From an uncultured Actinomycetota bacterium (GTDB taxonomy: Bacteria > Actinomycetota > Actinomycetes > JAFAQI01), in NCBI GenBank assembly GCA_963835405.1, contig CAWIFV010000010.1:15150-79149 (forward strand): DNA of 64,000 nt, in the 5' to 3' direction. The notes beneath the pieces were generated by a model. It saw only the letters and a list, made by a program, of their open reading frames with translations, searched no databases and had not been told where the DNA came from. How positions within the stretch are numbered: the stretch's first letter is position 1; every line of letters begins with the position of its first letter. Shown one piece after another: positions 27,227-48,532 of this stretch. The position numbers were made by a program, and so were the translations under genes.

Positions 27227-30200
27227 GTGGCGGGGGGTTTCTCACGGGGCGGGCTGGTCTCACCGGGCTGGCTGGGCGGATCGCGCACGCGCGCGCTGTC
27301 CCGGTGGCTGCTGCCGGCGGGTGGCGCCGCCGCCGCCGTCGTCCTCGCCGCCGGCAGTGCCCACGCCGCCACCGCCTCGGGTGCCTACACCGGGCCGGCG
27401 AACCCCACCACCGCCGACACGCTCACCTGGGCCGTCACGACCGACGACCCCACGACGACGAGCTGCGAGCTCGACCGGGACGCCACCACGCTGGCGGGGC
27501 CCGAGGCCTGCTCGACGTCGTACAGCTACGACGTGGCCGGCGGCCAGCCGGGCACGTACACGCTCGTCGTCTACGGCGTCGCTGCCGCGGACGTCGTGCC
27601 CGGCACCACCACCGGCAGCGCGTCGGGTGTCACCGTCGCGCCGCCCGCCCCCACGCCGAGCGCGCCCCCCGCCTCGGCGAGCACCACCCCGAGCTGGACG
27701 CTCGGGCTGCCCACCGGTTACCCCTCCGGCACCTGCACCGTGACCGACGCCTCCAGCGCGGTCGTGGTCGGTCCCGAGGCCTGCACCAGCCCGTACCCGA
27801 GCGACCTCGGCGCCACCGCGGCGACCGGGGACTACACGCTCCACGTCACGGTCTCGGCCAACGGCGTCACCAGCGCCGAGGGCACCGCGACCTACACGCT
27901 CACGCCCCCGGCGCCCACCACGCCCACGATCAGCCGGGCCGCGGCCGTGGACAGCAACCCCACCCCGTCGTTCACGGTCACCGAGCCGGACGCGGACGCG
28001 ACGCTCACCTGCGCCGTCTCCGGCACGAGTGCCACGGTCTCCGCCTGCGGGGCCACCACCACGCTCGACCTGACCGCGGCGGCGGACGGCGTCTACACGC
28101 TCACCGTCACGGCCACCAACACAGCCGGGGGGACCTCCTCGGCCACCTTCGACTACACGCTCGACCGCTCCGCCCCCTCGACCGTGACCGTCACCGCACC
28201 ACCCTCGCCCGCCCAAGGCACCCAGCCGGTCTTCACCGTCGCCGAGAGCGACACCGGCGTCACCTTCACCTGCGTGCTGACCCGACCGGACAGCTCGACC
28301 CGGTCGGTCAGCGGATGTGGCGCGGGCCAGGTGAGCGTCACCCTCGGCGCCGGGGACGGGCTCTACACGCTCACCGTCACCGTGACCGACGCCGCCGGAA
28401 ACAGCACCGGCGGCAGCGCCTCCTACACGCTCGACAGCGCCGCGCCGACGACGCCCACGATCAGCCGGCTGAAGTCCGTCGACCGCAACCGCACCCCGTC
28501 GTTCACCGTCACCGAGCCCGATTCGGACGCCACCCTCTCCTGCACCGTCACCGCGCCCGCCACCGTGACGCTGTGCGGGTCGACCACGACGATCGACCTG
28601 AGCGGGCTGGTCGACGGCGTCTACACGCTGACCGTCACCGCCACGGACCCGGCCGGCAACACCTCGTCCGCCACGTTCGCCTACACCCTCGACACCGGCG
28701 CCCCCACGACCCCGACCATCACCCGCTCGAAGTCGGTGGACAAGACGCGCACCCCGTCGTTCACGGTCACCGAGCCGGACAGCAACGCCACACTGTCCTG
28801 CACCGTGACCGGGGCCGGGGCGTCCGTGACGACGTGCGGGCCGACCACGACGCTGAGCCTGACCGGCGCCGACGGCGACTACGTGCTGACCGTGACGGCG
28901 ACCGACCCGGCCGGCAACAGCTCGGCCGCCAGCTTCACCTACACGCTGGACACCGTCGCCCCCTCCACCCCGACCGTCAGCCGGTCGCCGTCGGTGGACC
29001 GGACGCGGACCCCGTCGTTCACGGTGACCGGCGTCGACGCGGACGCCACGCTGTCCTGCACCGTGACCGGCGCCGGGGCGTCCGTGACGACGTGCGGGCC
29101 GACCACGACGCTGAGCCTCACCGGCGCCGACGGCGACTACGTGCTGACCGTCACGGCCACCGACCCCGCGGGCAACACCGCGTCCGCGACCTTCACCTAC
29201 ACCCTCGACGCCACCCCGCCGACCAAGCCGACGGTCAGCCGGGCGACGTCCGTGGACAACGACCCGAACCCGTCGTTCACGGTCACCGAGCCGGACCCGG
29301 ACGCCACCCTGTCGTGCACCGTGAGCGGGGGCGCCGTTCTCACCCTCTGCGGCCCGACAACGACCCTTGACCTGTCCGGGCTGCCCGACGGCAGCTACGT
29401 GCTGACGGTCACGGCGACGGACGCGGTCGGCAACAGCATCTCGACGACCTTCACCTACACGTTCGACACCACCCCCCCGACCAAGCCGACCATCAGCCGG
29501 TCGAAGTCGGTGGACAAGAACCGGACCCCGTCGTTCTCGGTGACCGGCGTCGACGCGGACGCCACGCTGTCCTGCACCGTGACCGGGACGGGCGCGGGCG
29601 TGACGCTCTGCGGGCCGACCACGACGCTGAGCCTGACCGGCGCGGACGGCGACTACGTGCTGACCGTCACCGCCACCGACCCGGCCGGCAACACGACCTC
29701 GGCCACCTTCACCTACACGCTCGACACCACGCCGCCGCCCCCGCCCGCGATCGCCCCCGTCCCCGCCCGACTCGCCACGAAGCAGGTCACGGTGGGCATC
29801 AGCGACAGCGAGGCAGGAGTCGCCCTCACCTGCCTGCTCCGGGCGCCCGGCGGCGGGACGGTGTTCACCGGCACCTGCCCCGGCAGCGGCGGGTTCGACA
29901 CCACCGGCTTCGGCGACGGCATCTACACGCTGACCGTGACCGCCACCGACCCGGCCGGCAACTCCTCGAGCAGCCAGGTGAGCTGGGAGCGGGACACGAC
30001 CCCGCCGCCGCCGCCGGTGATCACGGGCCCGGGTGCGTTCACCAACGACACGACCCCCACGCTCGGCCTCAGCGACACCGAGACCACGGCGACGCTGACC
30101 TGCGAGCTGACGGGCCCGTCGGGGGCGAGCGTCTTCTCCGGCGGCTGCCCGGCCGACGGCACCTTCACGACGGACGACGGCGACGGCACCTACTCGCTGG

Positions 30201-32596
30201 TCGTCACCGCGACCGACGAGCTGGGCAACGCCTCGTCGAGCCAGACCACATGGGTGCTCGACACGGTGCCACCACCGGCGCCCGCGGTCGTCAAGCCGCG
30301 GGACCCGAGCAACCTCACCCAGCCGGCCGTCGGGATCAGCGACACCGAGAGCGGTGTCGTCCTCAGCTGTGTCCTGACCGAGCCGGGTGGCGGCACCGTC
30401 ACCTACGCCGCCTGCCCGGCCACCTTCGACACCCGCCCGTACGGCGACGGGCTCTACACCCTCGCCGTGACCGCGACCGACGCCGCCAGCAACACCACGA
30501 CGACGACCGTCACCTGGATCCGCGACACCCTGCCGCCGCCGGCGCCGACGGTGTCTCCTCCCGCACCGCTGACGAAGTCGCGCACGGTCACCCTCACGAT
30601 CAGCGACAGCGAGCCCGGCGTCGTCCTCACGTGCGTGCTGCGGGCACCGGACGGGTCGACCGTCTTCTCCGGCGCGTGCCCCGCCGACGGCCTCTTCGAC
30701 ACGACCGGGCACGGGGACGGCGTCTACACCCTCGTCGTGACCGCGACCGACGCGGCGACGAACTTCTCGACGACGACCGTCACCTGGACCCGCGACACCA
30801 TCCCGCCGCCGGTGCCTTCGGTCACCGGGCCGGCCAGGCAGCCGGCGCAGGACCGCGCGCCGGCGTTCACCGTCTCCGACACCGAGGCGGGCGTGACCTA
30901 CACCTGCACGGTCACCGGACCGGGAAGCGCCCGCGTGAGCGCGTGCGGGTCCACCTCCCGGCTCGACCTGACCGGCTCGCCGGACGGCACTTACACGCTG
31001 ACCGTCACCGCGACCGACCCGGCCGGCAACGTCAGCGGGTCGGCCTCCGCCGGCTTCACCCTCGACACCACGCCGCCGGTCACCCCCGCGGTCACGCCCA
31101 CCCCATCGCCCTCCCAGGGCCGGACCGTCACCTACACCAGCACCGGGGTGGAGCCGGGCGGCGTCCTCGCCTGCGCGCTCACGGGGCCCGCCGGGTCGAC
31201 GGTCACCGTCGCGTCGGCGTGCACCGCCACCGTCACGATCAACCTGGCCGGCCAGCCCGACGGCACCTACACCCTGTCCGTCACGGTCACCGACGCGGCG
31301 GGCAACGTCAGCAGCGCCGGGACCGCCAGCTACCGCCTCGACACCACGCCGCCGGCCGCGCCCGGCGTGCTGGTGCCGCCGAGCCCCGGCAACGACACCA
31401 CCCCGACGTTGACCATCGCCGCCGAGCCGGGCGCGACGGTCACCTGCACCATCGCCCGCTTCTTCAAGGTGGTCGGCGCGGTGACGTGCACGACCGACGG
31501 CACCCTCGACCTCGGTGCCTACCAGGACGGCGAGTTCGAGATCACCGTCACCGTCACCGACGCCGCGGGCAACGTCAGCCCGGCGACCACCGTCACCTAT
31601 CTCCTGGACACGCTCGCGCCGGTCACCCCGGAGCTCACCGAACCGGCGAGCCCGTCACCCATCGAGCGTCCGGAGTGGCTGTTCACCGCCGAGCCGGACG
31701 CCATCGCCACCTGCACGGTCACCGACGCCGCCGGCACCGTCGTCCAGGGTCCGGTCGCCTGTGCGGGGACGTTCACCGGAGCGTTCCGCCTGCTGCCGGA
31801 CGGCACCTACACGCTCAGCGTCGTCGTGACCGACGCCGCCGGGAACGCCTCGGTGCCCGCCCTGTCGGTGTTCGTGCTCGACCGGACCGCGCCGGTCCCG
31901 CCGACCGTGACGCCGCCACCGCCCTCCGGCAGCGACAAGACGCCGACCTGGAAGATCCGCGCCCCACGTGGTGCGGTGCTGACCTGCACGCTGCTGGGCG
32001 GCCGGTCCGTCCTGTACGCCGGGGAATGCCCGAGCGACGGCGTCTTCAGCCTCCGCCACCAGCCGGACGGCACCTACACGCTGCGGGTCACGGCGACGGA
32101 CAGCGCCGGCAACGTGAGCGCCGCGTCGGTGTCGGAATACGTCCTCGACACCGTCTCTCCGGCCGTGCCGCGCCTCGACTACGCGTCGCCGTCGCCGTCG
32201 ACCAACACCAACCCCTACTGGGGCTTCACCCTGCCGGCCGGCGCTGCCGGTCGCTGCCAGCTCACCCGCGACGGGACCGTGCTGGCCACCAAGACCTGTT
32301 CCGAGGCGGTCTCGTTCGACCTGTCCGGCCGCAGCCCGGGCACCTACGTGGTGGTCATCACCGCGGTGGACGCCGCGGGCAACACCAGCCGGTCGCTGCA
32401 GGTCAGCTACATCCTGGGCGCGCCGTCGTCGCCTCCGCCCCCGGCGTCCGGCGGTAGCGCTCCGCCGCCGCCAGCCTCGGCGGTGACGGCGGCCCGACCA
32501 CAGGTGGCGGCCACCACCGGTCCCACTCACCGGGCCCGGATGTCCTGCCGACGCCCGCCGCGGTCGAGCAGGCGATCGCCCGCATCGGGCAGCTGA
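27227..32596 (+). CDS. giant secreted tandem Ig-like-domain repeat protein (about 20 repeats of about 85 aa)
   Basis: Uninterrupted 1789-aa ORF. Signal-peptide-like N-terminus (RTRALSRWLLPAGGAAAAVVLAAGSAHA/ATASG). Repeats follow the pattern TPSFTVTEPD.DATLSCTVTG...CG.TTTL.L.G..DG.Y.LTVTATD.AGN....TF.YTLDT..P, each with two Cys. The C-terminus is Pro-rich. See the findings for a probable frameshift into ORF 32659..32904. Confidence 0.85.
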   Translation: MAGGFSRGGLVSPGWLGGSRTRALSRWLLPAGGAAAAVVLAAGSAHAATASGAYTGPANPTTADTLTWAVTTDDPTTTSCELDRDATTLAGPEACSTSYSYDVAGGQPGTYTLVVYGVAAADVVPGTTTGSASGVTVAPPAPTPSAPPASASTTPSWTLGLPTGYPSGTCTVTDASSAVVVGPEACTSPYPSDLGATAATGDYTLHVTVSANGVTSAEGTATYTLTPPAPTTPTISRAAAVDSNPTPSFTVTEPDADATLTCAVSGTSATVSACGATTTLDLTAAADGVYTLTVTATNTAGGTSSATFDYTLDRSAPSTVTVTAPPSPAQGTQPVFTVAESDTGVTFTCVLTRPDSSTRSVSGCGAGQVSVTLGAGDGLYTLTVTVTDAAGNSTGGSASYTLDSAAPTTPTISRLKSVDRNRTPSFTVTEPDSDATLSCTVTAPATVTLCGSTTTIDLSGLVDGVYTLTVTATDPAGNTSSATFAYTLDTGAPTTPTITRSKSVDKTRTPSFTVTEPDSNATLSCTVTGAGASVTTCGPTTTLSLTGADGDYVLTVTATDPAGNSSAASFTYTLDTVAPSTPTVSRSPSVDRTRTPSFTVTGVDADATLSCTVTGAGASVTTCGPTTTLSLTGADGDYVLTVTATDPAGNTASATFTYTLDATPPTKPTVSRATSVDNDPNPSFTVTEPDPDATLSCTVSGGAVLTLCGPTTTLDLSGLPDGSYVLTVTATDAVGNSISTTFTYTFDTTPPTKPTISRSKSVDKNRTPSFSVTGVDADATLSCTVTGTGAGVTLCGPTTTLSLTGADGDYVLTVTATDPAGNTTSATFTYTLDTTPPPPPAIAPVPARLATKQVTVGISDSEAGVALTCLLRAPGGGTVFTGTCPGSGGFDTTGFGDGIYTLTVTATDPAGNSSSSQVSWERDTTPPPPPVITGPGAFTNDTTPTLGLSDTETTATLTCELTGPSGASVFSGGCPADGTFTTDDGDGTYSLVVTATDELGNASSSQTTWVLDTVPPPAPAVVKPRDPSNLTQPAVGISDTESGVVLSCVLTEPGGGTVTYAACPATFDTRPYGDGLYTLAVTATDAASNTTTTTVTWIRDTLPPPAPTVSPPAPLTKSRTVTLTISDSEPGVVLTCVLRAPDGSTVFSGACPADGLFDTTGHGDGVYTLVVTATDAATNFSTTTVTWTRDTIPPPVPSVTGPARQPAQDRAPAFTVSDTEAGVTYTCTVTGPGSARVSACGSTSRLDLTGSPDGTYTLTVTATDPAGNVSGSASAGFTLDTTPPVTPAVTPTPSPSQGRTVTYTSTGVEPGGVLACALTGPAGSTVTVASACTATVTINLAGQPDGTYTLSVTVTDAAGNVSSAGTASYRLDTTPPAAPGVLVPPSPGNDTTPTLTIAAEPGATVTCTIARFFKVVGAVTCTTDGTLDLGAYQDGEFEITVTVTDAAGNVSPATTVTYLLDTLAPVTPELTEPASPSPIERPEWLFTAEPDAIATCTVTDAAGTVVQGPVACAGTFTGAFRLLPDGTYTLSVVVTDAAGNASVPALSVFVLDRTAPVPPTVTPPPPSGSDKTPTWKIRAPRGAVLTCTLLGGRSVLYAGECPSDGVFSLRHQPDGTYTLRVTATDSAGNVSAASVSEYVLDTVSPAVPRLDYASPSPSTNTNPYWGFTLPAGAAGRCQLTRDGTVLATKTCSEAVSFDLSGRSPGTYVVVITAVDAAGNTSRSLQVSYILGAPSSPPPPASGGSAPPPPASAVTAARPQVAATTGPTHRARMSCRRPPRSSRRSPASGS
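28793..29691 (+). repeat. three near-identical ~125-bp segments inside the giant gene (about 28793-28917, 29051-29175, 29567-29691)
   Basis: Read directly: ctgtcctgcaccgtgaccgg.gccggggcgtccgtgacgacgtgcgggccgaccacgacgctgagcct.accggcgccgacggcgactacgtgctgaccgt. recurs with only a few substitutions. The first two copies are 258 bp (86 codons) apart. Confidence 0.8.

Positions 32597-32900: not shown

Positions 32901-32904
<4 letters not shown>
32659..32904 (+). CDS. TM-helix-containing ORF, probably the frameshifted C-terminal tail of the giant repeat protein
   Basis: The frame is open from 32458 (own translation ...PGPDVLPTPAAVEQAIARIGQLTETVRQAGHKAAHAAVDTAQHVLPAMRD...). It contains the hydrophobic helix FPLMLLFVVIAFLVM. 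Its TGA overlaps the ATG of the cyclase gene (ATGA at 32901-32904). Confidence 0.5.
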
Positions 32905-34462
<1,558 letters not shown>

Positions 34463-34466
<4 letters not shown>

Positions 34467-35395
34467 GTGTTGCTCGGCCCCAACGGTCGCATCGCGAACG
34501 CGAGAAGTGTCACCGCGTCGAAGGGGACCGGAGCGTTCGCCGCGTAGCCCGCGACGTAGTCGGCGGGAACGGGATGGTCGAAGCCCTCACCGGCAACGAC
34601 TTGTCGCGGGCCACTGGGCCCGCCGGACTCGTAGGTCGTACCGACGTAGCTGAGGTTGTTGTCACTTCCGCAGCTCACCCCGCCGTTCTTCGAAGCGGAG
34701 GGGCACGCATCTGCGGTGGTGGCGTCCAGCTCGGAGGGGGACGACGTCCAGTCGATGGCCACCGCGGTCGAGACGAGTGGCTTTCTGCCGAGCCGGTCAG
34801 GCATCGAGCCGAGCGCTGCGCCGCTCGCGGGTCCCAGCAGCGAGACCGGCGTCGATGAGGCATTCGCGGGGAACGGGGCGTGGCGCACCTTGACGATGTC
34901 CATCGGGAAGGGCATGCGCACTGTCGTTGAGCGATCTGTGGCGACCAGGACGGTGTAGCGGCGGCCGGGTTTCAACTGCATGAACCTGAAGTCGTAGCCG
35001 AAGGGCAGTATGGCCGGCCATCCGCGGGTTGATCCCGGGTCGGGCATCAGTGCCCAACCCTGGCGGAGCCGCGGAAAGTAGAAAGCCAGGTACCGGCTTG
35101 CCCTGCGCGGGAGCTCGCTCTGAAACGGCAGCGCCCAGGTCGTGCGCGGGACCGTGAAGACGACCCGGCTTCGGCGGGGCAGGGCCACCTGGGGGCCTGC
35201 CCCGCTCGATGGTGTCGTCGACGACGCGGTGTCCAGCGTCACTGCCTGCGAGCCCGGAGCGGACCCCTGTGTCCACGAACGCTCGACGGTGCGGCTGCCC
35301 GGGCCAGCTGATGGCGGGGTCGCGAACGTCGGCGCCGCGAGAACGAGCGCGCCGAACAGCGAGAGGGCGCACACTGGCCCTCGACGCCGAGCCAC
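34463..35395 (-). CDS. hypothetical secreted protein
   Basis: ORF 34463..35581. The likely start is GTG 35395, giving the signal peptide VARRRGPVCALSLFGALVLAAPTFA. Third positions are visibly more A/T-rich than in neighbouring genes. The stop overlaps the cyclase stop in the palindrome CCTAGG (34462-34467). No domain recognised. Confidence 0.55.
34530..34557 (+). repeat. direct repeat B, copy 1
   Basis: ggagcgttcgccgcgtagcccgcgacgt is identical to 39387-39414. It extends with 2-3 mismatches over about 11 more nt. Confidence 0.9.
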
Positions 35396-35472
35396 CCCTG
35401 TCTGCACGGCATCTCCAATTCGCGCGCGACGACCCGACTCCTGCCAGCGGCTCTCATCTCTCGCAGAGCGGG

Positions 35473-35502
35473 GCAGGCGCGAGCGGTCACGGCGCTCTCG
35501 TC
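35473..35502 (+). repeat. direct repeat A, copy 2 (relic of the cyclase gene 3' end)
   Basis: Identical 30-mer that would still read QARAVTALSS-stop in frame. Followed by the palindrome at 35509-35524. Confidence 0.9.
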
Positions 35503-35508
35503 GTAGGC

Positions 35509-35524
35509 GTTGAGGCGCCTCAAC
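35509..35524. terminator. perfect 16-nt palindrome GTTGAGGCGCCTCAAC, possible ancestral terminator hairpin of the cyclase gene
   Basis: Read directly. It lies 3 nt after the relic stop codon of repeat A copy 2. The equivalent position after copy 1 is degenerate (gttgctcggccccaac). No U-tract is present. Confidence 0.3.
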
Positions 35525-35706
35525 ACGAGGACTAGTCGGGTCGGTGCGGGTGTCCTGACCCGTTGTCGTCAGCCTCATCATCCGTTCGGCTAATTCTTCC
35601 GTGCATTCGGGTGTATCTGCGTCATATCGACACGGGATGCTTTGACTCGCCGGAGATATCGCGTGACGGTGCAGTCACCGTCGGCCGTCGGCTGGCGGAG
35701 TGCGCA

Positions 35707-35796
35707 CCCGGGGAGGCGTCGACACCGCGACCGAGCAGTCGGTCACCTTGGCTCGGGGGAGCCGCGGTCGCGGCGAGCCACTGGTGGGACCGGCCC
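35707..35796 (+). promoter_or_regulatory. conserved structured 5' leader element, copy 3 (diverged)
   Basis: CCGCGACC (35725-35732) pairs with GGTCGCGG (35766-35773). The enclosed hairpins are ACCGA-gcag-TCGGT and GGCTC-gggg-GAGCC. The tail is GGCGAGCCACTGGTGGGACCGGCCC (35772-35796). It ends 32 nt before ATG 35829. Confidence 0.6.
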
Positions 35797-35828
35797 CGGC
35801 ACCGCGTCGGACGACAGGGGTGCCCGGG

Positions 35829-38800
35829 ATGATCGCAAACTCACATCGGCTCCGGAGGCTGTTCGCCGGGGCCGTGAGCCTCGCCGTGCTCGCCAGCACC
35901 GCGGTCGCTTTCAGCCCGTTCGGCAGTTCGGCCGGCGCCGCCATCACGGTGATCCCATCCAACTACTTCACGGTGCAGGACGGGACGGCGAACGACGAGC
36001 CCGGGCAGAAGGACCTCACCCAGATGGGCCGGGACGACACCAGCGCCTCCCGGCTGCTGGTCTTCTGGAGCTGGGACGACACCGACTTCTCGGGCCAGGC
36101 CGGCGATGCCTGCGCGCTGTTCAGCGCCACGTCCGACGGACATGTGACCTTCGCCATCTGCGGCGAGGTCGTCAACGGCGCCACGCCCGGCACGGTCGTG
36201 CTGAACGCCGGGTTCCCGACCGGCTACACCTGCACCCCCACGGTGCACCCGCTGGACCGCTGCGACTCGGGGTTGGCGGCGTCCATCGGTACGACGACGG
36301 CGGGGCCCATCAGCGGCGGCGGCACCGACCTCGTGACCCAGACCGACCCCTTCAACAAGCCGTCGGGGACCAACACCACGCTCGCTCTCGACATCCAGCG
36401 CAGCGCTCTTCCGTCCGGGGTCAACCTGGTGAACGTCTGCTCCTACCCGTCGATCGCCAACGGCGCCAACAACGACCCGTCGGACTGCATCGTCACCCCC
36501 GGTGGTGGCTTCCTGCAGATCGTCAAGAACGCGACCGGCGGCGACCGCACGTTCGACTTCACGATCAACCCGCTCGCCGTGGCCCGGTCGGTGACGACGT
36601 CCGGGGGCACCGGCACGAGCGCGCCGTACACCGCCGCGGCCGGGACGGGCTTCGAGGTCACGGAGTCCGTGCCCAGCAACTGGGACCTGGACTCGGCGTC
36701 GTGCCTGTTGCAGGACGGCACCACCTCGACCGGGACGTTCCACTCCGCGACGGACAAGGTCGACGGCATCACGGTCGAAGTCGGGCGGCTCACCACGTGC
36801 ACCTTCGCCGACGTCAAGGCCGACCCGAAGCTCCATCTCGTGAAGTCGACGACCACGGCCAACTTCAGCGCCGTCGGCGACACCATCGACTACACCTACA
36901 CGCTGACCAACACCGGCAATGTGCCGCTGACACCGCCCTACTCGGTCAGTGACGACAAGACGACGGTCTCGTGTGACCAGACACCCGACCCTCTGCCCGC
37001 TGGCGGGGTCACCGAAGTCAAGTGCACGGCCAGTTACACGGTCGATCAGGCCGATCTCGACGCCGGTTCGGTGACGAACGAGGCCACGGCGAAGGCGAAG
37101 TACAACGGCAACGACGTGCCGTCCAACCAGGCCAAGCTGACCGTCAACGCAATGCGGAGCCCTGCTCTCGGTCTCGACAAGGACAGCACCGACAAGGCGA
37201 ACGGCTACTCCAGCGTCGGCGACGTTCTGAACTACACCTACGACCTCACGAACATCGGCAACGTCACCCTCGACGCGCCGACTCGGTCGAGGACAAGGTC
37301 GAGAACACGACCCCGCTGACGGTCACTTGCCCGGTGGTGCCACTGCACCTGGCGCCAGGTGACCCCGCCGTCCAGTGCACTGCGACCTATGTGGTCACTC
37401 AGGACGACCTCGACCGCGGCTCGGTGACCAATGTTGCGAAGGGCCACGCCAAGTTCCTGGGGAAAGACGTGGCGTCGGCGACCGACTCGGTCACGATCGA
37501 CGCCAGCCAGAGCAAGTCGGTCATGCTGGAGAAGAAGGTCACGGAGCCGACCTACGATCACCTGGGTGAGGTCATCCAATACACCTACACGCTGACCAAC
37601 ACCGGGAACGTCACCCTGCATTCGCCATACAGCGTGGACGACGACAAGGTAGACGTCCTCGGGTCGGTCGATTGCTCGAACGGCCCGACCGACCTCGCTC
37701 CTGGGGGGCACTTCGACTGCTCGGCCACATACAAGATCACGCAGGCCGACCTCGACGCCGGCTCGCTGACCAACAATGCTCTCGGCCACGCCACGTTCGG
37801 CGGCAAGACCGTCGACTCCAACCCCGCCCAGAAGACGATCACGGCAATCCTGATGCCTGCCGTCTCGTTGGCGAAGTCGGCGGCCGAGCCCAGCTATAGC
37901 ACCCCCGGTACGGTGCTGCACTACACATACATTCTGACCAACACTGGAAATGTCACCTTGTCGGCTCCGTTTGCCGTGACGGATGACCACATCGCGACCG
38001 TCACCTGCGGCCAGCTTCCAGCGAGTCTCGCCCCGAGTGACCATGTCACCTGCACCGGGGCATACTCGGTCACGCAGTCGGACATCGATGCGGGGTCCGT
38101 GACGAACCACGCCACGGGATCGGCGGTCTTCGGGGTCACCACGATCACGTCGCAACCAGCCCAGGCCACGGTCCCGGCAGTGCGGGCCCCCGCCCTGACG
38201 CTCGTGAAGACCGCGCTCACCGCGGACTACGCGGCGGTGGGCGACGTCCTCGACTACACCTACACGCTGACCAACACCGGCAACGTGTCGCTGAGCGCGC
38301 CGTACGCCGTGGGCGACGATCTGATCGCCTCGGTCGACTGCTCGTCCGGGCCGGCGTCGCTGCCGCCGGGCGCGAGCTTCGACTGCACCGGCAGCTACGC
38401 CGTGACGCAGGCAGACCTGGACGCGGGCGCGGTCGTGAACCACGCGACCGCGACGGCCCACCAGCGTGGCGGGGTCGTCACGTCCAACCCGGGCGAGGCC
38501 ACCGTGCCGGCGGTCCAGGGGCCGGCGCTGAGCCTGGTCAAGAACGCGGCCGAAGCGTCGTACAGCGGCGCCGGGGACCAGCTGCACTACACCTACACGC
38601 TGACCAACTCCGGCAACGTGTCGCTGAGCGCGCCGTACGCGGTCGCCGACGACTGATCGCTACCGTCGCCTGCCCGGACACGCCCGCGAGCCTCGCGCCG
38701 GGGGAGCGGTCGCATGCACCGGGACCTACGACGTGACGCAGGACGACGTCAACGCGGGCAGTGTCATCAACCACGCGACGGCGTCGGCGACGTTCGGCGG

Positions 38801-39404
38801 CAATGCCGTCGGGTCCAACGAGGCCCAGGCCACCGTGCCCGCCATCCAGGACCCGCTCCTGACGCTGTCGAAGTCGGCGGACAAGGACTCGGTCACCTAC
38901 GGTGAGGAGCTCACCTACACGGTCTCGGCGACCAACACCGGCAACATCGACCTGACCGGTGTCGTGGTCAGCGATGCGATCCCGGACGGCACGACCTACG
39001 TGAAGGGCTCCGCGACTCCGGCCGCGATCGCGTCGTACGACGCCGGCACCGACGCGGTGAGCTGGACGGTCGGCGATCTCGCGGTCGGCGAGTCGGTCCG
39101 TGGGCTGACGTTCACGGTGACGGTCGACACGCCGGACTTCGACCCGACGGTGGGGTTGCCGGTCAGCACGATCGACAACGTCGCACTCGTCGAGGCGGAC
39201 TCCGTCGAGCCGGCGCCGTCGAACCACGTGAAGACGCCGGTCGTCGCCGTCCTCGGCATCAAGGAGGAGCGTCCGGAGCTGCCGTTCACCGGCTCCGCGC
39301 TGCCCATCCCACTCGCCTCCGGGCTGGCGGTGCTCATGATCCTGGCCGGTGCGCTGCTGACCGGATCCGTTCGCCGCCGCCGGTCTGGAGCGTTCGCCGC
39401 GTAG
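35829..39404 (+). pseudogene. LPXTG-anchored surface protein with prealbumin-like domain and about 8 DUF11/DUF7507-type repeats, 3 frame breaks (about 37270, 38652, 38712)
   Basis: Signal peptide MIANSHRLRRLFAGAVSLAVLASTAVA. Repeats follow Y.YTLTNTGNV.L....V.DD...V.C........L.PG....C...Y.VTQ.DLDAGSV.N across ORFs 35700..37319, 37022..38656 and 38733..39404. The C-terminal sorting signal is LPFTGS + TM + RRRR. Confidence 0.8.
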
Positions 39405-39956: not shown

Positions 39957-41222
39957 ATGGACTCGACAGCGGTCGTGGAGGAGGAGGTCCGCGAGCTCGT
40001 CCGCCGCCGCGGGCTCGACCCGGCCGCCGACGCCGCGGCGATCCGCCGGCTGGTCGAGGAGGTCATCGCCGACTACGACGAGCGGTCGCTGACCAGCTCG
40101 CTGCCGCCGCTGGCCGACCCGCCGCCGGCGGCCCGCGCAGGTCTACGACGCGGTCGCCGGGTTCGGGCCGCTGCAGCCCTACCTCGACGATCCCGAGGTC
40201 GAGGAGATCTGGCTGAACGAGCCCGGCCGGGTGTTCGTCGCCCGTCGCGGCCGGAGCGAGCTGACCACGACGATCCTCACCGCGGGCGAGGTCCGGGACC
40301 TCGTCGAGCGGATGCTGAAGTCCTCCGGCCGTCGGGTCGACCTGTCGAGCCCCTTCGTGGACGCGATGCTCGCCGGACGGGTCCCGGCTGCACGTCGTGA
40401 TCCCCGACATCACCCGGCTGCACTGGGCGTGAACATCCGGAAGTTCGTCGTCCCGGCCCATGCCCTCGACCAGCTCGTCGAGCCTCGGCACGCTACCCGC
40501 GCAGGCGGCGCGGTTCCTCGAGGCTGCCGTCGCCGCCGGGCTCAACATCGTCGTCGCCGGCGGCACGCAGGCGGGCAAGACGACGATGCTCAACTGCCTT
40601 GCCAACGCGATCCCGCCGCGGGAGCGGGTCATCACCTGCGAGGAGGTCTTCGAGCTTCGAATCGCCGCTGCCCGGACGTCGGTCGCGATGCAGACCCGGC
40701 AGCCGAGCCTGGAGGGCACCGGCGAGATGCGGCTGCGCCGGCTGGTCAAGGAGGCGCTGCGGATGCGTCCCGAGCGGATCATCGTCGGCGAGGTCCGGCA
40801 GGAGGAGGCGCTCGACCTGCTCATCGCCCTCAACTCCGGGATCCCGGGCATGGCACGATCCACGCCAACTCCGCTCGGGAGGCGTGACGAAGCTGTGCAC
40901 GCTGCCGCTGCTCGCCGGCGAGAACGTCAGCCACGCGTTCGTCGTACCGACCGTTGCCGCGAGCATCGACCTCGTCGTTCACATCGCGTGCGCGATGCGT
41001 CCGGGCAGCGCCGGGTGCGCGAGATCGTCGCGGTGCCCGGCCGGGTCGAAGGGCGACGTCATCGAGACGGCCGACATGTTCACGACCCGAGACGACCGGC
41101 TGGTCCGGGCAGAGGGCTGGCCGCCGCACCTCGACCGGTTCGCGCGCGCCGGCTGTGACGTGGCCGCCCTGCTGAACGACGCCTCGCGCACACCGGCTCG
41201 CGGGTCGATGGTGGCCGGCTGA
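39957..41222 (+). pseudogene. CpaF/TadA-type pilus assembly ATPase, at least 5 frame breaks
   Basis: Fragments in three frames: MDSTAVVEEEVRELVRRRGLDP, EIWLNEPGRVFVARRGRSELT, NIRKFVV, Walker A GGTQAGKTTMLN, RIIVGEVRQEEALDLL, HANSAREA. Ends at TGA 41220-41222. Confidence 0.8.
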
Positions 41223-42086
41223 TGGGCTCGGTCATCGGGCTGCGTCTTCGGCGTCGGGCTGCTGCTGATCTGGCGCAGCGGCCCGCGCAAGCCGCCGCCC
41301 CGCCGGACATCCGCCGCTCGCGCACCGAGCGCACCGCCGAGCTTCTCGCCCAGGCCGGGTACGCCGCGATCCGGCCCGAGCAGCTCTACGCGCGTGTGCG
41401 CCGGCACCGCGCTGGCGGCCGGCGGCCGTCGTCGGTGTGGCCACCCGGTCCGCCAGCATCGCCGTGGCGTTCGGCACGTTCGCCGCCTACGCGCCGGTCG
41501 CCCTGGTCAGGGCGCGGCGCCGGCGCCGCGCCGTCGAGCTGCGGGAGCTGTGGCCGGAGGTCGTCGACAACCTCGCGTCCGCGGTCCGTGCCGGGTTGTC
41601 GCTGCCGGAGGCCGTCGCGCAGCTCGGCGTCCGCGGGCCGGAGTCGCTGCGGGAGCCGTTCCAACGCTTCGGCGCGGACTACCGCGCCACCGGCCGTTTC
41701 GGCGCGTGCCTGGACCGGTTGAAGACGAGCCTCGCCGACCCGGTGGCCGACCGGATCGTCGAGTCGCTGCGGGTCGCGCGCGACGTCGGCGGCAGTGACC
41801 TCGGCCGGCTGTTGCGCACGCTCTCGCCAGTTCCTGCGCGAGGACGACCGGACCCGTGCCGAGCTCGAGACCCGGCAGGGCTGGACGGTGAACGCGGCCC
41901 GGCTCGCGCTCACGGCTCCCTGGGCGGTGCTGGCTCTGCTCGCGATGCGGCCCGAGACCGTCGCGGCCTACGACACCGCGGCCGGCGTGCTGGTGCTGCT
42001 CGTCGGCGGCGGCGTGTCGCGTCGTCGCCTACCGGCTCATGATGCGCATCGCCCGGTTGCCCGAGCAGGAGCGGGTGCTGCGATGA
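41222..42086 (+). pseudogene. TadB-like type II secretion system F-family membrane protein, about 3 frame breaks
   Basis: ORFs 41222..41722, 41437..42042 and 41795.. carry LRELWPEVVDNLASAVRAGLSLPEAVAQLG...ADRIVESLRVARDVGGSDLGRLL. Ends with an ATGA overlap onto the next gene. Confidence 0.7.
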
Positions 42087-43026
42087 CCCCGGTCGCCACC
42101 GGTGCGCTGTTCGGCCTCCTCGCGTCGGGTCGGGGTCGTGCTGGCGGTCGCCTCCAGCCCGCCGCTGCGCCGCCCGCGACTGGCCGACCGGCTCGCGCCC
42201 TACCTCCGCGACGCACCTCGCCCGTCCCGGCTGCTCGACCGGGCGCACGCCTCGACCCCGTTCCCGACCGTCGAGCGGCTGCTCGGTCCGGTGCTGCGCG
42301 ACGCCGCGCGCGTCGTCGACCGCGCCGTCGGAGGCACCGCGTCGGTACGTCGACGGCTGGACCAGGCGGGCCGGAACATGACCGTCGAGCAGTTCCGGAT
42401 CGAGCAGGTTCTGTGCGGCGCGGCCGGGCTGCTCGTCGGGCTGCTCGGTGCCCTCGCCGCGACCGTGCACGGGGGGCCGGCGAGCCCGGTCCTGTTCCTC
42501 GTCCTGTGCGCCGGGCTCGTCACCGCCGGCGTCCTCGGCCGCGACCGGCTGCTCTCCGCCGAGGTCGCCCGGCGCGAGCGGCGGATGCTGGTCGAGTTCC
42601 CGACCGTGGCCGAGCTGCTGGCGCTGGCCGTCGCCGCCGGCGAGGGCGCGGTCGGTGCGCTGGAGCGGGTCGCCCGGCTCTCGACCGGCGAGCTGGCGCG
42701 GCGAGCTCGGCCGGGCGCTGGCCGACGCCCGCGCCGGCGCCTCCCTCGTCGCCGCCCTGGAGGGGATGGCCGCGCGGACCTCGCTACCGGCTCTGGCCCG
42801 GTTCGTCGACGGGCTCGCGATCGCCATCGAGCGCGGCACGCCGTTGGCCGAGGTGCTGCGCGCACAGGCCGTCGACGCGAGCGAGGAGCAGCGCCGGGCG
42901 TTGCTCGAGGTCGGTGGACGCAAGGAGATCGCGATGCTCGTCCCGGTCGTCTTCCTCGTGCTGCCGGTCACCGTCGTCTTCGCCCTGTTCCCGGGCTTCT
43001 ACAGCCTCTCGCTCTCCGTTCCCTGA
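42083..43026 (+). pseudogene. TadC-like type II secretion system F-family membrane protein, 2 frame breaks (about 42125, 42700)
   Basis: ORF 42102..43172 (EFPTVAELLALAVAAGEGAVGALERVA) joins ORF 42448..43026 (LARFVDGLAIAIERGTPLAEVLRAQA...IAMLVPVVFLVLPVTVVF). Confidence 0.7.
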
Positions 43027-43063
43027 ACGTCCCCTCGTCCCGACGTACCGGAAAGGAACCCGC

Positions 43064-43273
43064 ATGCTCCCCTCCGTCCTGGTCGCGGTGTGGCACTTCG
43101 TGGGCCGGCGGCTGCCGGTTCTTCGCTCGGACCGAGGTGACGTCCCGGGGTGGGTGCTCATCACGCTCATGACCGCCGGCATCGTCACGGCGCTCTGGAT
43201 CGTGGCCGAGCCCAAGATGGCCAGCATCCTGGACGGCGCGCTCAGCATCTCCGGTGACCCGAACGCCAAGTGA
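43064..43273 (+). CDS. small hydrophobic Flp/DUF4244-like putative pilin
   Basis: In-frame ATG 43064 within ORF 41795..43273, 69 aa: MLPSVLVAVWHFVGRRLPVLRSDRGDVPGWVLITLMTAGIVTALWIVAEPKMASIL... It occupies the position of the pilin gene in actinobacterial tad loci. The canonical G/xxxxEY motif is absent. Confidence 0.5.
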   Translation: MLPSVLVAVWHFVGRRLPVLRSDRGDVPGWVLITLMTAGIVTALWIVAEPKMASILDGALSISGDPNAK

Positions 43274-43689
43274 GCCCCGGGCCGACGGGGGACCTCGGCG
43301 GCGGGGGCGTGACCGGCGACCGGGGCTCGGCCGCCGTCGACTTCGTCCTCGTCGGGTCGCTCGTCACGCTGATGTTCCTCGCCGTGCTCCAGCTCGGTGT
43401 CGACTACCACGTGCGCAACGTCCTGGCCGCGTGCGTGGCCGAGGGGGCGCGGTACGCCGCCAACGCCGACGTGGCCGACCCCCAGGCCGGGGCCGACAAG
43501 GCCAACGAGCTGATCCGCGCGTCGCTGGGGGAGTCGTTCGCGCGTGCCGAGGCGCCGGACGCGGCCGAGACGGTCGCCGGTGCACCGGTCGTCACCGTCA
43601 CGGTCCGGGCCCGGCTGCCGTTGCTCGCGTGGTTCCTGCCGGTCGGGCCGACGGTCACCGCGACCGGGCATGCGCTGGTCGAGCCATGA
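43270..43689 (+). CDS. TadE-like pseudopilin
   Basis: ORF 43270..43689 has GSAAVDFVLVGSLVTLMFLAVLQLG (TadE N-terminal pattern). Start/stop overlaps occur on both sides. Confidence 0.65.
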   Translation: MSPGPTGDLGGGGVTGDRGSAAVDFVLVGSLVTLMFLAVLQLGVDYHVRNVLAACVAEGARYAANADVADPQAGADKANELIRASLGESFARAEAPDAAETVAGAPVVTVTVRARLPLLAWFLPVGPTVTATGHALVEP

Positions 43690-44168
43690 CGGTCGCGAGA
43701 GTCGCGAACGCCGTGACCCGCCGGCGGGGCGATGCGGGCAGCGCCATCGTGGAGTTCGTCTGGCTCGCCGTGCTGTTGATGATCCCGCTCGTCTACGTCG
43801 TCCTCGCCGCGGTGTCGGTGCAGCGGACCGCGTTCGCGGAGTCGGCGGCGGCCAGGGAGGCGGCGCGGGCCTACGCGACGGCCGGGTCGGACGCCGAGGG
43901 GGAGCGGCGCGCCGAGGCGGCCGTCGCGCTGGCCATGCACGACCAGGGCGTCGACTGGCAGCCGACCGGGCGGGTCGTCGCCTGCGGTGCCTGCGGCTAT
44001 GAGCCGGGGTCGACGTTCACGGTCGACCTGCGCACGGTCGTGGCGCTGCCGTTCGTGCCCCGCTGGATGTGCGGGGATCGCTGCGCCGCGGGCATCCCGG
44101 TGAGCGCGCACCACCGGGAGCGGCTCGACTGCTACGCCGGCACCGGCATAGCGGGCACCTCGTGCTGA
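43686..44168 (+). CDS. TadE-like pseudopilin
   Basis: In-frame ATG 43686 within ORF 43254..44168, with RGDAGSAIVEFVWLAVLLMIPLVYVVLA. Confidence 0.6.
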   Translation: MTVARVANAVTRRRGDAGSAIVEFVWLAVLLMIPLVYVVLAAVSVQRTAFAESAAAREAARAYATAGSDAEGERRAEAAVALAMHDQGVDWQPTGRVVACGACGYEPGSTFTVDLRTVVALPFVPRWMCGDRCAAGIPVSAHHRERLDCYAGTGIAGTSC

Positions 44169-46227: not shown

Positions 46228-46343
46228 CAGCGGCGCCTCAGCCGTTCGACGACTGGATCGTCCAAACGGGTGATTTCGCTAGGGACAATAAGGTCATTCG
46301 CGACGTTCGGCTTGACCGGTGTTGATCGCGAACCCACGCTGGC

Positions 46344-46436
46344 GTGACCGGGGGGCTACGAACCGCGACCGGGACACGGTCACCCTTCCCCGATCCCAGG
46401 GGAACGGTCGCGGGGAGCCAGTGGTGAGACCGACCC
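46344..46436 (+). promoter_or_regulatory. conserved structured 5' leader element, copy 1
   Basis: CCGCGACC (46363-46370) pairs with GGTCGCGG (46406-46413). The enclosed hairpins are ACCG-ggaca-CGGT and TTCCCC-gatccca-GGGGAA. The 25-nt tail GGGGAGCCAGTGGTGAGACCGACCC (46412-46436) is identical to 48484-48508. It ends 27 nt before ATG 46464. Confidence 0.65.
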
Positions 46437-46463
46437 ATAGACGGTAAGAGGGGTTGGTCGGTC

Positions 46464-48250: not shown

Positions 48251-48423
48251 CCGACAGGCGACGCAGCGGGCGGTCCCGAGACATCGGGGCCGTCCTCTTC
48301 GCTGTGTCCGGGCGGGTAGCCAGGCAGGGGTCTGCGGCCGCCGGTCCGAATACGGACATATCCGGCTACCTCCCTTGACGTACGGTTACCGACCGGCAAC
48401 CGTGTGAGCGCGCCCTGCCCGGG

Positions 48424-48508
48424 CGTGGGGGGCATGGATCCGCGGCCGGTACGCCGGTCACCGTTCCGCGAGGAGACGGCCGCGGGGAGCCAGTGGTGAG
48501 ACCGACCC
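48424..48508 (+). promoter_or_regulatory. conserved structured 5' leader element, copy 2
   Basis: CCGCGGCC (48440-48447) pairs with GGCCGCGG (48478-48485), a compensatory A:T to G:C change relative to copies 1 and 3. The second hairpin is TTCC-GCGA-GGAG. The 25-nt tail is identical to copy 1. It ends 24 nt before ATG 48533. Confidence 0.65.
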
Positions 48509-48532
48509 GTCGCGCAGCACGGGAGGGTCGCC

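What the first reader, a model, noticed from the sequence alone, without database searches (positions are those of the whole stretch)
35707..35828. Leader element copy 3 (diverged) in front of the DUF11-repeat LPXTG gene, 10.5 kb from the other two copies
About 28 of 32 positions of the core cggtcgcggNgagccaNtggtgNgaccgNccc are retained. The closing helix is identical to copy 1, and both inner hairpins are sequence-different but intact (ACCGA-gcag-TCGGT; GGCTC-gggg-GAGCC). The element therefore survives on a gene unrelated in sequence to the other two and in a different locus. That argues for selection on the element itself. The start-proximal pairing is less clear here (GGCCCC with GGGG.GCC, with a bulge).
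Basis: seen in the sequence. Interest (0 to 1): 0.75.

Follow-up and report, generated by a model that had tools for sequence, protein, structure and literature searches.

The report
c-di-GMP-II-type riboswitch before adhesin gene
The "leader element" is a member of a catalogued riboswitch family (Rfam RF03169, a variant of the class II cyclic-di-GMP riboswitch) in the 5' leader of a cell-wall-anchored surface protein gene, so it is a real regulatory RNA of a known kind.

Summary
Window 35703-35804 (+) matches Rfam RF03169, the c-di-GMP-II-GAG riboswitch aptamer, at 51.8 bits (curated threshold 40). The two other copies, 46342-46444 and 48419-48517, match the same family. The 32-nt core occurs three times in the window and never in 100 shuffles.

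Copy 3 has every helix of the family: P1, P2, a GA-containing internal loop, P3, an optional hairpin and the pseudoknot. It ends 24 nt before the ATG (35829) of a SpaA_4/DUF7507/DUF11 gene that ends in LPFTG.

The closest ortholog, 64% identical in a Frankiaceae MAG, carries the same aptamer 23 nt before its start. Across 66 family members, 85% of pair cells are paired, against 33-41% in slid controls.

The most likely mechanism is a translational ON switch: the 3' strand of P1 and the adjacent GGCACC can pair with the ribosome-binding region instead. That step is inferred.

The ligand is unvalidated as far as I could find; c-di-GMP or a related dinucleotide is the best guess. Supporting context is a GGDEF cyclase gene 1.2 kb upstream, an adjacent tad pilus locus, and the sortase-anchored targets.

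Copy 3 has GGG where 91% of members have GAG. This is rare but recurrent.

The kind is known; interest is low to moderate.

The parts
35642..35670 (+). Putative promoter: -35 TTGACT (35642-35647), 17-nt spacer, -10-like GACGGT (35665-35670). The predicted transcription start is near 35677.
   Evidence: TTGAC and the A..GT of the second hexamer are invariant in an alignment of five orthologous leaders whose flanks have diverged. Coordinates were checked. The generic sigma-70 scan found nothing, so this is inferred from conservation only.
35703..35804 (+). Aptamer domain, Rfam RF03169 c-di-GMP-II-GAG.
   Evidence: 51.8 bits against a gathering score of 40, E=2.6e-7, model positions 1-86 of 86. 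It scores 74.1 bits with my own model R1, but copy 3 was one of R1's 8 training sequences, so that score is circular.
35708..35713 (+). P1 5' strand CCGGGG, which pairs with 35794-35799 (CCCCGG).
   Evidence: Pairs verified base by base. P1 covaries across the family. L121 has CCUUGG here, which gives G-U pairs.
35715..35717 (+). P2 5' strand GGC, which pairs with GCC 35777-35779. A35714 is the bulged A between P1 and P2.
   Evidence: P2 is 96.9% paired across the family.
35718..35724 (+). Internal loop GUCGACA, opposite CGA at 35774-35776. It carries the conserved GA dinucleotides on both sides. A35724 is an extra base absent from the 7 relatives aligned.
   Evidence: Resemblance to a kink-turn is from my recollection of the class II structure and was not tested.
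35725..35773 (+). P3: CCGCGACC (35725-35732) pairs with GGUCGCGG (35766-35773). It encloses the pseudoknot strand and the P4 hairpin.
   Evidence: All 8 P3 pairs show changes on both sides across the family, and the helix is 92.1% paired.
35740..35747 (+). Pseudoknot 5' strand CGGUCACC.
   Evidence: It pairs with 35783-35786 (GGUG) and 35789-35792 (ACCG). The family pseudoknot is 93.7% paired, and one pair is AU:33 / GC:23 with none unpaired.
35750..35763 (+). Optional hairpin P4, GGCUC-GGGG-GAGCC.
   Evidence: Every one of the 8 close relatives has a hairpin here with an unrelated sequence. It is absent from the ~85-nt Chloroflexi-type members.
35783..35793 (+). 3' tail GGUG-GG-ACCG-G. It holds the pseudoknot 3' strand and the unpaired dinucleotide G35787-G35788, the predicted pocket. 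The family consensus is GGYG-AG-ACCG-A.
   Evidence: In the survey of 125 members, the position of G35787 is A in 114, C in 7 and G in 4. The position of G35793 is A in 77, G in 45 and U in 3. Mapping to C68/A69/A74 of PDB 3Q3Z is my own inference from the contact list in PMC7288161.
35794..35831 (+). Expression platform. The P1 3' strand plus GGCACC (35794-35803) can pair with GGUGCC-C-GGG (19-24, 26-28 of 358xx). This occludes part of the ribosome-binding site AGGGGUG (35816-35822) and abuts the ATG at 35829-35831.
   Evidence: Predicted in the minimum-energy folds. GGCACC, GACAGGGGUG(U/C)C and GAUG are conserved in five orthologous leaders. Family-wide complementarity has p=3.5e-5. No terminator was found. 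The function is inferred.
35829..39404 (+). Regulated gene: signal peptide, SpaA_4 domain, repeated DUF7507 domains, a DUF11 domain, and a C-terminal LPFTG sortase signal. As assembled it is read in four pieces because of apparent single-base indels near 37280, 38655 and 38706.
   Evidence: The homolog starts agree with ATG 35829.
46342..46444 (+). Copy 1 of the same family, 19 nt before a secreted-protein gene (ATG 46464).
   Evidence: RF03169 at 62.4 bits. GACCGACC pairs with GGUCGGUC next to the ATG, z=-2.4.
48419..48517 (+). Copy 2 of the same family, 15 nt before an LPFTG-anchored Gly/Asp-repeat protein gene (48533-49483).
   Evidence: RF03169 at 60.3 bits; ORF.
32901..34466 (+). Context, not part of the element: a membrane GGDEF diguanylate cyclase gene with an intact GGEEF motif and an RxxD site.
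   Evidence: Pfam GGDEF, E=2.9e-46; motifs read.

Best explanation
Window 35703-35804 is the ligand-binding (aptamer) domain of a c-di-GMP-II-GAG-class riboswitch (Rfam RF03169). It sits in the 5' untranslated leader of a sortase-anchored SpaA_4/DUF7507/DUF11 surface protein gene.

Transcription probably starts near 35677, from a conserved TTGACT-17 nt-GACGGT promoter.

The RNA folds into P1, P2, a GA-containing internal loop, P3 with an inserted hairpin, and a pseudoknot between CGGUCACC and the 3' tail GGUG-GG-ACCG.

Without ligand, the 3' strand of P1 and the adjacent GGCACC pair with the ribosome-binding region (AGGGGUGCC-GGG, directly before the ATG) and block initiation. With ligand, P1 and the pseudoknot are locked, the ribosome-binding site is released and the adhesin is translated. 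This makes it an ON switch.

The most likely ligand is c-di-GMP or a close cyclic or linear dinucleotide relative. Together with copies 1 and 2, the switch would put three surface proteins that flank a tad pilus locus under one second-messenger signal.

Shown: family membership, the structure, the position relative to the gene, and conservation with the ortholog.
Inferred: the promoter, the ON logic and the ligand.
For: - Family membership: the Rfam RF03169 match is above the curated threshold for all three copies, with 0 matches of the core in 100 shuffles.
- Structure: all helices and the pseudoknot were verified base by base in copy 3.
- Family-wide support on 66 sequences: 85.2% of cells paired against 33-41% when the partners are slid; covariation score 0.344 against 0.05-0.08; 0 of 500 shuffles reach the observed values.
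- Conservation with the gene: the closest ortholog of the downstream gene (P0002, 64% identity, Frankiaceae MAG) has an RF03169 aptamer 23 nt before its start. Two further relatives have it before the DUF5979-DUF7507 gene pair.
- Orthologous leaders: five share the -35 and -10 boxes, the aptamer, GGCACC, GACAGGGGUG(U/C)C and GAUG. P3 shows A-U / G-C / G-U exchanges and P4 is different in every one.
- Translational control: the median distance from aptamer end to start codon is 23 nt over 127 leaders, and there is no terminator.
- Anti-ribosome-binding-site role of the 3' strand: the 3' 22 nt of the aptamers pair with the ribosome-binding/start region at a mean of -13.8 kcal/mol. Shuffled partners give -11.9 (p=3.5e-5) and the 5' strand gives -9.3 (p=4e-10), n=90.
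- Energy balance in copy 3: the aptamer state is -64.9 kcal/mol plus about -9 for the pseudoknot; the sequestered state is -75.4. The two are roughly balanced.
- Gene targets: 71 of 104 downstream proteins look secreted, and 25 of 89 complete ones end in a sortase motif.
- Local context: an apparently active GGDEF cyclase gene at 32901-34466 and a tad pilus locus at 40373-44644.
- Precedent: canonical c-di-GMP-II riboswitches of C. difficile turn on the adhesins CD2831 and CD3246 and type IV pili at high c-di-GMP (PMC11477304).
Against: - Ligand: no ligand is validated for the GAG variant in anything I could read. The defining paper (Weinberg et al. 2017, PNAS, PMC5358364) is not held. From memory, its abstract says these variants 'might recognize different bacterial signaling molecules'.
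- Pocket position: copy 3 has G35787 where 114 of 125 members have A. It also has an extra A35724 and the lowest Rfam score of the three copies.
- Thermodynamics: these are uninformative for copy 3 on its own. The aptamer has z=-0.11 and the sequester hairpin z=-0.62. The ribosome-binding region pairs about as well with the 5' strand (-18.9) as with the 3' strand (-19.2).
- Promoter: it fails the generic consensus scan.
- GGDEF genes: they are not generally found near family members (2 of 123 loci).
- Sequence quality: the window has many single-base indels, so individual bases of the element could be wrong.
- Expression: no expression data were available.
Confidence: 0.6

Rival explanations
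1. Copy 3 has the same fold but a different ligand. The GGG pocket dinucleotide context, instead of GAG, gives it a specificity different from copies 1 and 2, so one genome would use one scaffold to read two signals.
For: - The changed base lies between the two pseudoknot helices. By my mapping onto PDB 3Q3Z, this is where ligand-contacting nucleotides C68 to A70 sit.
- The same position separates canonical members (C-A) from GAG members (A-G). The C-A members score as RF01786.
- GGG recurs independently in three Chloroflexi genomes: L012, L025 and L111.
Against: - In two independent cases a GGG aptamer and a GAG aptamer sit before orthologous genes: copy 3 against L121, and L012 against L027. 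This is what a neutral purine exchange looks like.
- Only 4 of 125 members have it.
- The base could be a sequencing error in an error-rich assembly.
Confidence: 0.1
2. Copy 3 is a decaying relic: an aptamer that no longer binds anything, in front of a gene that is itself a pseudogene.
For: - It has the lowest score of the three copies (51.8 bits).
- It carries a substitution at a 91%-conserved position and a 1-nt insertion in the internal loop.
- The downstream gene is broken into four reading-frame pieces.
Against: - The frameshifts are not specific to this gene. The housekeeping S41 protease is split over three frames at 69-83% identity to its ortholog. The tad ATPase and membrane genes and the copy-1 gene are also split. 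This points to assembly indels.
- GC3 stays at 0.85-0.98 in every piece of the gene.
- All five helices of the aptamer are intact, and changes relative to orthologs are compensatory.
Confidence: 0.1
3. It is the same aptamer but with different regulatory logic. It could be an OFF switch, act on transcription or mRNA stability, or be a binding site for a protein rather than a small molecule.
For: - The ON logic is inferred only. For copy 3 the pairing with the ribosome-binding site is not distinguishable from chance.
- The 5' strand of P1 (GCACCC) is also complementary to GGGUGC in the ribosome-binding region (-18.9 kcal/mol).
Against: - Only 24 nt separate the aptamer from the ATG, and there is no terminator.
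- Family-wide, the 3' strand rather than the 5' strand is the preferred partner of the ribosome-binding region.
- The fold is that of a small-molecule aptamer whose canonical class has a solved ligand complex (3Q3Z).
Confidence: 0.12
4. The match is chance G+C-rich similarity or a repeated DNA element with no RNA function.
For: The region is 78% G+C, and its folding energy is no better than that of shuffles.
Against: - None of 100 shuffles matches the core.
- The match to an independent curated covariance model has E=2.6e-7.
- It is always on the sense strand, immediately before a start codon.
- Covariation includes the pseudoknot.
- It is conserved in front of the ortholog in another genome.
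Confidence: 0.02

Closest known systems
Rfam RF03169, c-di-GMP-II-GAG riboswitch aptamer (clan CL00127). From memory, it was defined by Weinberg, Nelson, Lunse, Sherlock and Breaker, PNAS 2017, 114:E2077.
   Same: - Copy 3 gives a full-length match above the curated threshold.
- The helices, internal loop, pseudoknot and conserved 3' tail are the same.
- It has the same position, sense strand just upstream of a start codon.
- It has the same taxonomic setting; my survey hits are mostly Actinomycetota and Chloroflexota MAGs.
   Different: - The tail reads GGUG-GG-ACCG-G instead of GGYG-AG-ACCG-A. The first difference is seen in only 4 of 125 members.
- It belongs to a longer subtype (about 100 nt) with an extra hairpin inside P3; 30 of 131 hits are at least 98 nt long.
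- There is one extra base, A35724, in the internal loop.
Canonical c-di-GMP-II riboswitch, Rfam RF01786 (Lee et al. 2010, Science, from memory; crystal structure PDB 3Q3Z).
   Same: - They belong to the same clan with the same overall architecture, including the pseudoknot formed by the ...ACCGNCC 3' tail.
- In my survey, members with C-A in the tail score as RF01786 while sharing the rest of the sequence pattern.
   Different: - The dinucleotide between the two pseudoknot helices is C-A in the canonical class, A-G in the GAG class and G-G here.
- The pseudoknot loop strand changes with it (UGGGCACC against CGGUCACC).
- Ligand binding is proven for the canonical class only.
C. difficile c-di-GMP-II ON switches upstream of CD2831, CD3246 and the type IV pilus operon.
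   Same: A class II-type aptamer controls sortase-anchored adhesins and pili, with expression turned on at high signal (PMC11477304). Here the targets are LPFTG proteins that flank a tad pilus locus.
   Different: - The organisms are Firmicutes, and the aptamers are of the canonical class.
- Regulation there is established experimentally. Here the logic is inferred, and it is probably translational rather than transcriptional.
Bc2 c-di-GMP-I riboswitch upstream of the collagen adhesion protein gene cap in Bacillus thuringiensis (PMC4933901, listed).
   Same: A second-messenger riboswitch sits in the 5' UTR of an adhesin gene.
   Different: The fold is unrelated (GEMM-I). I read only the abstract as listed.

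Membership tests
Rfam RF03169 c-di-GMP-II-GAG | Covariance-model score at or above the curated gathering score (40 bits), with a full-length match. | tested here: met
   51.8 bits, model positions 1-86 of 86, E=2.6e-7.
Rfam RF03169 c-di-GMP-II-GAG | P1, P2 and P3 helices with the GA-containing internal loop between P2 and P3. | tested here: met
   P1 has 6 bp, P2 3 bp and P3 8 bp, all Watson-Crick. GA is present on both sides of the loop. The helices covary across the family.
Rfam RF03169 c-di-GMP-II-GAG | Pseudoknot between the P3 loop strand and the conserved 3' tail. | tested here: met
   CGGUCACC (35740-35747) pairs with GGUG (35783-35786) and ACCG (35789-35792), 8 pairs. Across the family the pseudoknot is 93.7% paired, with an AU/GC exchange.
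Rfam RF03169 c-di-GMP-II-GAG | The variant nucleotides that give the family its name ('GAG'), as against the canonical class. | tested here: inconclusive
   I could not read the defining paper. If GAG is the G-A-G in GGYG-AG-ACCG, which is my inference, then copy 3 has G-G-G and fails at the middle base. That base is A in 114 of 125 members, C in 7 and G in 4. Members with C-G there still score best as RF03169, so the mapping is unproven.
Rfam RF03169 c-di-GMP-II-GAG | Cis-regulatory position: sense strand, in the 5' leader of the regulated gene. | tested here: met
   The aptamer ends 24 nt before ATG 35829, on the same strand. The family median is 23 nt.
Riboswitch (functional definition) | Direct, selective binding of a small molecule that changes gene expression. 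| not testable with these tools
   This needs in-line probing or ITC plus reporter assays. No ligand for RF03169 was found in the searchable literature.
Canonical c-di-GMP-II, RF01786 | Best-scoring clan member is RF01786, and the tail carries the C-A-A pocket nucleotides (C68, A69, A70 of 3Q3Z). | tested here: not met
   The best clan match for copy 3 is RF03169. The tail has G-G-A, not C-A-A. Genuine C-A-A members in L034 and L107 do score as RF01786.

The most novel reading that the evidence does not exclude
The GAG-class aptamers may not sense c-di-GMP but a different, still unidentified signalling nucleotide. In addition, the rare GGG pocket of copy 3 may tune or switch that specificity. 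One actinomycete would then read two related signals with one RNA scaffold to choose which surface adhesin to display beside its tad pili.
Probability: 0.1. Interest if true: 0.7.

Novelty: new member of a known kind. Interest (0 to 1): 0.3.

Why it matters
The main value is annotation. The three "leader elements" in this window are riboswitches of a catalogued family, so any standard Rfam scan would flag them.

The locus does offer a useful natural test bed for a class whose ligand, to my knowledge, has not been validated. It holds three aptamers, two with the GAG pocket and one with GGG, in front of three secreted or sortase-anchored proteins. They surround a tad pilus locus, and an apparently active diguanylate cyclase gene lies 1.2 kb away. 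If c-di-GMP is the ligand, this would be a compact RNA-controlled adhesion regulon in a Frankiales/Mycobacteriales-like actinomycete.

The family survey adds three points:
- Sortase-anchored and secreted proteins are the dominant targets in Actinomycetota.
- The expression platforms are short translational ones.
- A-to-G exchange at the pocket position occurs in front of orthologous genes.

Tried and rejected
1. Pseudogene or decay reading. The downstream gene is split into four frame pieces. However, the S41 protease, the tadA/B/C homologs and the copy-1 gene are split in the same way, at high identity to their orthologs. The breaks are single missing bases outside long homopolymers. I therefore treat them as assembly errors.

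2. Family-wide it is only 64.8% paired, and 54 of 500 shuffles do as well. The pseudoknot explains the same bases better.

3. Transcription termination. No terminator-like site was found in 35450-35950.

4. Generic promoter scan. It found nothing. The promoter was instead inferred from conservation.

5. Folding-energy z-scores. They are uninformative at 78% G+C.

6. General linkage of the family to GGDEF genes. Only 2 of 123 loci have one.

7. Pfam survey of 104 downstream proteins. Most have no family. The few recurring families (polyketide-cyclase/SRPBCC-like and SnoaL, 3-5 members each) say little about the ligand.

8. Literature. The defining PNAS 2017 paper and the 3Q3Z structure paper are not held. 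Only two held papers mention the family name, and both do so in lists.

9. Exact look-up of the window's own protein, to identify the organism, found nothing on record.

10. Test of my mapping of the name 'GAG'. Members with C-A do score as canonical. Members with C-G scored as RF03169 or RF01786 rather than as the GCG family. The mapping remains unproven.

Full report
**Observation.**
- The 32-nt core matches at 35765-35796 with no mismatch in its 28 specified positions. It matches again at 46405-46436 and 48477-48508. None of 100 dinucleotide-preserving shuffles of the window gave a match.

**Identity.** A gathering-threshold scan of the window against Rfam 15 assigns all three elements to RF03169, the c-di-GMP-II-GAG riboswitch aptamer (clan CL00127).
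- Copy 1 (46342-46444) scores 62.4 bits, copy 2 (48419-48517) 60.3 bits and copy 3 (35703-35804) 51.8 bits. The curated threshold is 40. Each match is full length.

**Anatomy of copy 3** (pairs verified).
- P1: CCGGGG 35708-35713 pairs with CCCCGG 35794-35799.
- Bulged A35714.
- P2: GGC 35715-35717 pairs with GCC 35777-35779.
- Internal loop: GUCGACA opposite CGA, carrying the conserved GA dinucleotides.
- P3: 35725-35732 pairs with 35766-35773.
- Inside P3 lie the strand CGGUCACC (35740-35747) and a hairpin GGCUC-GGGG-GAGCC (35750-35763).
- 3' tail: GGUG-GG-ACCG-G (35783-35793). Its GGUG and ACCG pair with CGGUCACC to form a pseudoknot.

**Family-level test of the structure.** I scanned one genome per species for the tail pattern GAGCNANTGGYGNGACCGNCC.
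- I built covariance model R1 from eight close relatives and found 131 aptamers in the window plus 123 loci. Of the 120 pattern loci, 99 contain one.
- On 66 of these aptamers, the structure including the pseudoknot is 85.2% paired, against 33-41% when partners are slid by 1-3 columns. The covariation score is 0.344 against 0.05-0.08. None of 500 shuffles reaches the observed values.
- One pseudoknot pair is A-U in 33 sequences and G-C in 23, and never unpaired. The pseudoknot was not part of the model that made the alignment.
- The local hairpin is only 64.8% paired, no better than shuffles. The pseudoknot is therefore the supported reading.

**The regulated gene.**
- The ATG at 35829 opens a gene encoding a signal peptide, a SpaA_4 prealbumin-like domain, repeated DUF7507 domains and a DUF11 domain. 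It ends in LPFTG, a hydrophobic segment and an Arg-rich tail, which is a sortase signal, at 39404.
- As assembled it is read in four frame pieces. I do not take this as pseudogenisation.
- The housekeeping S41 protease is split over three frames at 69-83% identity to its ortholog. The tad ATPase and membrane protein genes and the copy-1 gene are also split.
- The breaks look like single missing bases. The window therefore has a high indel error rate, which also limits trust in any single base of the element.

**Conservation with the gene.**
- The closest homolog of the N-terminal 486 residues is P0002, 64% identical, from a Frankiaceae MAG. Its contig has an RF03169 aptamer (54 bits) ending 23 nt before its start.
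- In two further relatives the aptamer precedes a DUF5979 gene, which is followed by the DUF7507 ortholog. A second aptamer there precedes a 393-residue LPFTG protein.
- In those genomes the genes lie between prfB and ftsE. That is where copies 1 and 2 lie in this window. Here the DUF7507 gene and its leader lie on the other side of the tad pilus locus.
- Aligning five orthologous leaders shows invariant blocks in otherwise diverged sequence: TTGAC, a second hexamer nACnGT 17-18 nt later, the aptamer, GGCACC, GACAGGGGUG(U/C)C and GAUG.
- P3 shows A-U, G-C and G-U at the same pair, and the inserted hairpin is different in every leader.
- Copy 3 is thus the ortholog of a distinct leader lineage kept under structural constraint. 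It is not a decaying duplicate of copies 1 and 2.

**Mechanism (inferred).**
- Only 24 nt separate the aptamer from the ATG. No terminator is present. The family median spacing is 23 nt. Control of translation initiation is therefore the likely output.
- Minimum-energy folds of the copy 3, copy 1 and L121 leaders pair the 3' part of the aptamer with the region just before the start codon. The short-fragment fold of copy 2 shows the same.
- In copy 3 the pairs are GGCACC 35798-35803 with GGUGCC 35819-35824, plus CCC 35794-35796 with GGG 35826-35828. This overlaps the P1 3' strand and covers part of AGGGGUG (35816-35822).
- With P1 to P4 enforced, the leader folds at -64.9 kcal/mol, plus roughly -9 for the pseudoknot. 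The sequestered form is -75.4 kcal/mol. The two states are roughly balanced.
- Over 90 leaders, the 3' 22 nt of the aptamer pair with the ribosome-binding/start region better than with shuffled versions (-13.8 against -11.9 kcal/mol, p=3.5e-5). They also pair better than the 5' 22 nt do (-9.3, p=4e-10).
- For copy 3 alone the pairing is not distinguishable from chance (z=-0.27 and -0.62).
- The simplest logic is an ON switch: ligand locks P1 and the pseudoknot and frees the ribosome-binding site.

**Ligand.** I found no validated ligand for RF03169.
- Only two held papers mention the name, both in lists. The defining paper is not held.
- From memory, its abstract says the c-di-GMP-I and -II variants might recognise different signalling molecules.
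- Arguments for c-di-GMP or a close relative:
  - The fold is shared with the canonical class.
  - The targets fit: 71 of 104 downstream proteins look secreted, and 25 of 89 complete ones carry a sortase motif. Pfam recognises few of them.
  - There is a precedent in C. difficile, where c-di-GMP-II switches turn on the adhesins CD2831 and CD3246 and type IV pili (PMC11477304).
  - In this window, a GGDEF cyclase gene with intact GGEEF and RxxD motifs lies 1.2 kb upstream, next to a tad pilus locus.
- Against generalising the last point: only 2 of 123 family loci have a GGDEF gene in the fetched block.

**What is unusual about copy 3.**
- In the tail GGYG-x-G-ACCG-y-CC, x is A in 114 of 125 members, C in 7 and G in 4. 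y is A in 77, G in 45 and U in 3. Copy 3 has x=G and y=G, so only x is rare.
- PMC7288161 lists the nucleotides of PDB 3Q3Z that contact c-di-GMP as A13, A14, U37, G39, U60, A61 and C68 to A74. I aligned the tails to these. By that alignment x corresponds to C68 and the next G to A69, which places x next to the pocket. This mapping is my inference.
- It is partly supported, because members with C-A at these positions score as canonical RF01786. It is not proven, because members with C-G did not score as the GCG family.
- The three other GGG members are Chloroflexi.
- In two independent cases a GGG aptamer and a GAG aptamer precede orthologous genes: copy 3 against L121, and L012 against L027. 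This favours a tolerated purine exchange over a new specificity. A changed specificity or a sequencing error cannot be excluded.

**Verdict.** The element belongs to a kind that is already catalogued and detectable by a routine Rfam scan. The residual interest lies in the unvalidated ligand of the GAG class, the rare GGG pocket of this copy, and a compact locus that would make both testable.

Noticed in passing
window 32901-34466 (+): A membrane protein with a C-terminal GGDEF domain (Pfam E=2.9e-46), an intact GGEEF active-site motif and an RxxD inhibition site. It lies 1.2 kb upstream of riboswitch copy 3, separated by one minus-strand gene of unknown function (34463-35581).
   Followed up: partly
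window 51993-53158, 40373-43020, 46464-48200, 35829-39404: Conserved genes are each split over two to four reading frames at high identity to their orthologs. They are the S41 protease, the tad ATPase, both tad membrane proteins, the copy-1 gene and the DUF7507 gene. The breaks look like single missing bases outside long homopolymers. The assembly appears to have roughly one indel per 500-700 bases in this region.
   Followed up: partly
window 40373-44644 (+): A tad/flp pilus locus (ATPase, two membrane proteins, a 68-residue pilin-like gene, TadE and TadG-like genes) lies between the DUF7507 gene and prfB. In the relatives L121 to L123 the DUF7507 ortholog lies after prfB instead, so the gene and its leader have moved across the tad locus.
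   Followed up: partly
window 27227-32596 (+): A 1789-residue protein made of about 13 Big_13 Ig-like repeats lies directly upstream of the GGDEF gene. No riboswitch hit precedes it.
   Followed up: no
window 54615-54974 (+): A tmRNA gene (Rfam RF00023, 165 bits) lies downstream of smpB, completing the conserved prfB ... ftsE-ftsX-S41-smpB-ssrA neighbourhood.
   Followed up: no
L034 3601-3685 (-) and 3870-3958 (+); L107 690-774 (-) and 961-1049 (+): A canonical c-di-GMP-II aptamer (RF01786) and an RF03169-type aptamer sit back to back on opposite strands about 185 nt apart. Each faces its own small secreted-protein gene. This occurs in two unrelated genomes, one of them Oceanithermus. A natural pairing of the two classes at one divergent promoter region could help decide whether they sense the same ligand.
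   Followed up: no
L122 5814-6001 and L123 5810-6001: In these relatives the DUF7507 ortholog has no aptamer of its own. It follows a riboswitch-preceded DUF5979 gene after a gap of about 185 nt, so it may be co-transcribed with it.
   Followed up: no
window 46311-46339 and 48375-48403: Copies 1 and 2 also have a TTGAC(C/G) box followed 17 nt later by an nAnnnT hexamer (CACGCT, AACCGT) just upstream of the aptamer. Each of the three genes therefore seems to have its own promoter-riboswitch unit.
   Followed up: partly
24 of the fetched loci, e.g. L038, L103, L115 (3 aptamers each): Family members often occur two or three times within 8 kb, each before its own gene. The three-copy arrangement in this window is therefore typical of the family.
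   Followed up: partly
window 48533-49483 (+): The protein after copy 2 contains a run of GGDQGA/GGDQDT repeats between its signal peptide and its LPFTG anchor. It has no Pfam match.
   Followed up: no
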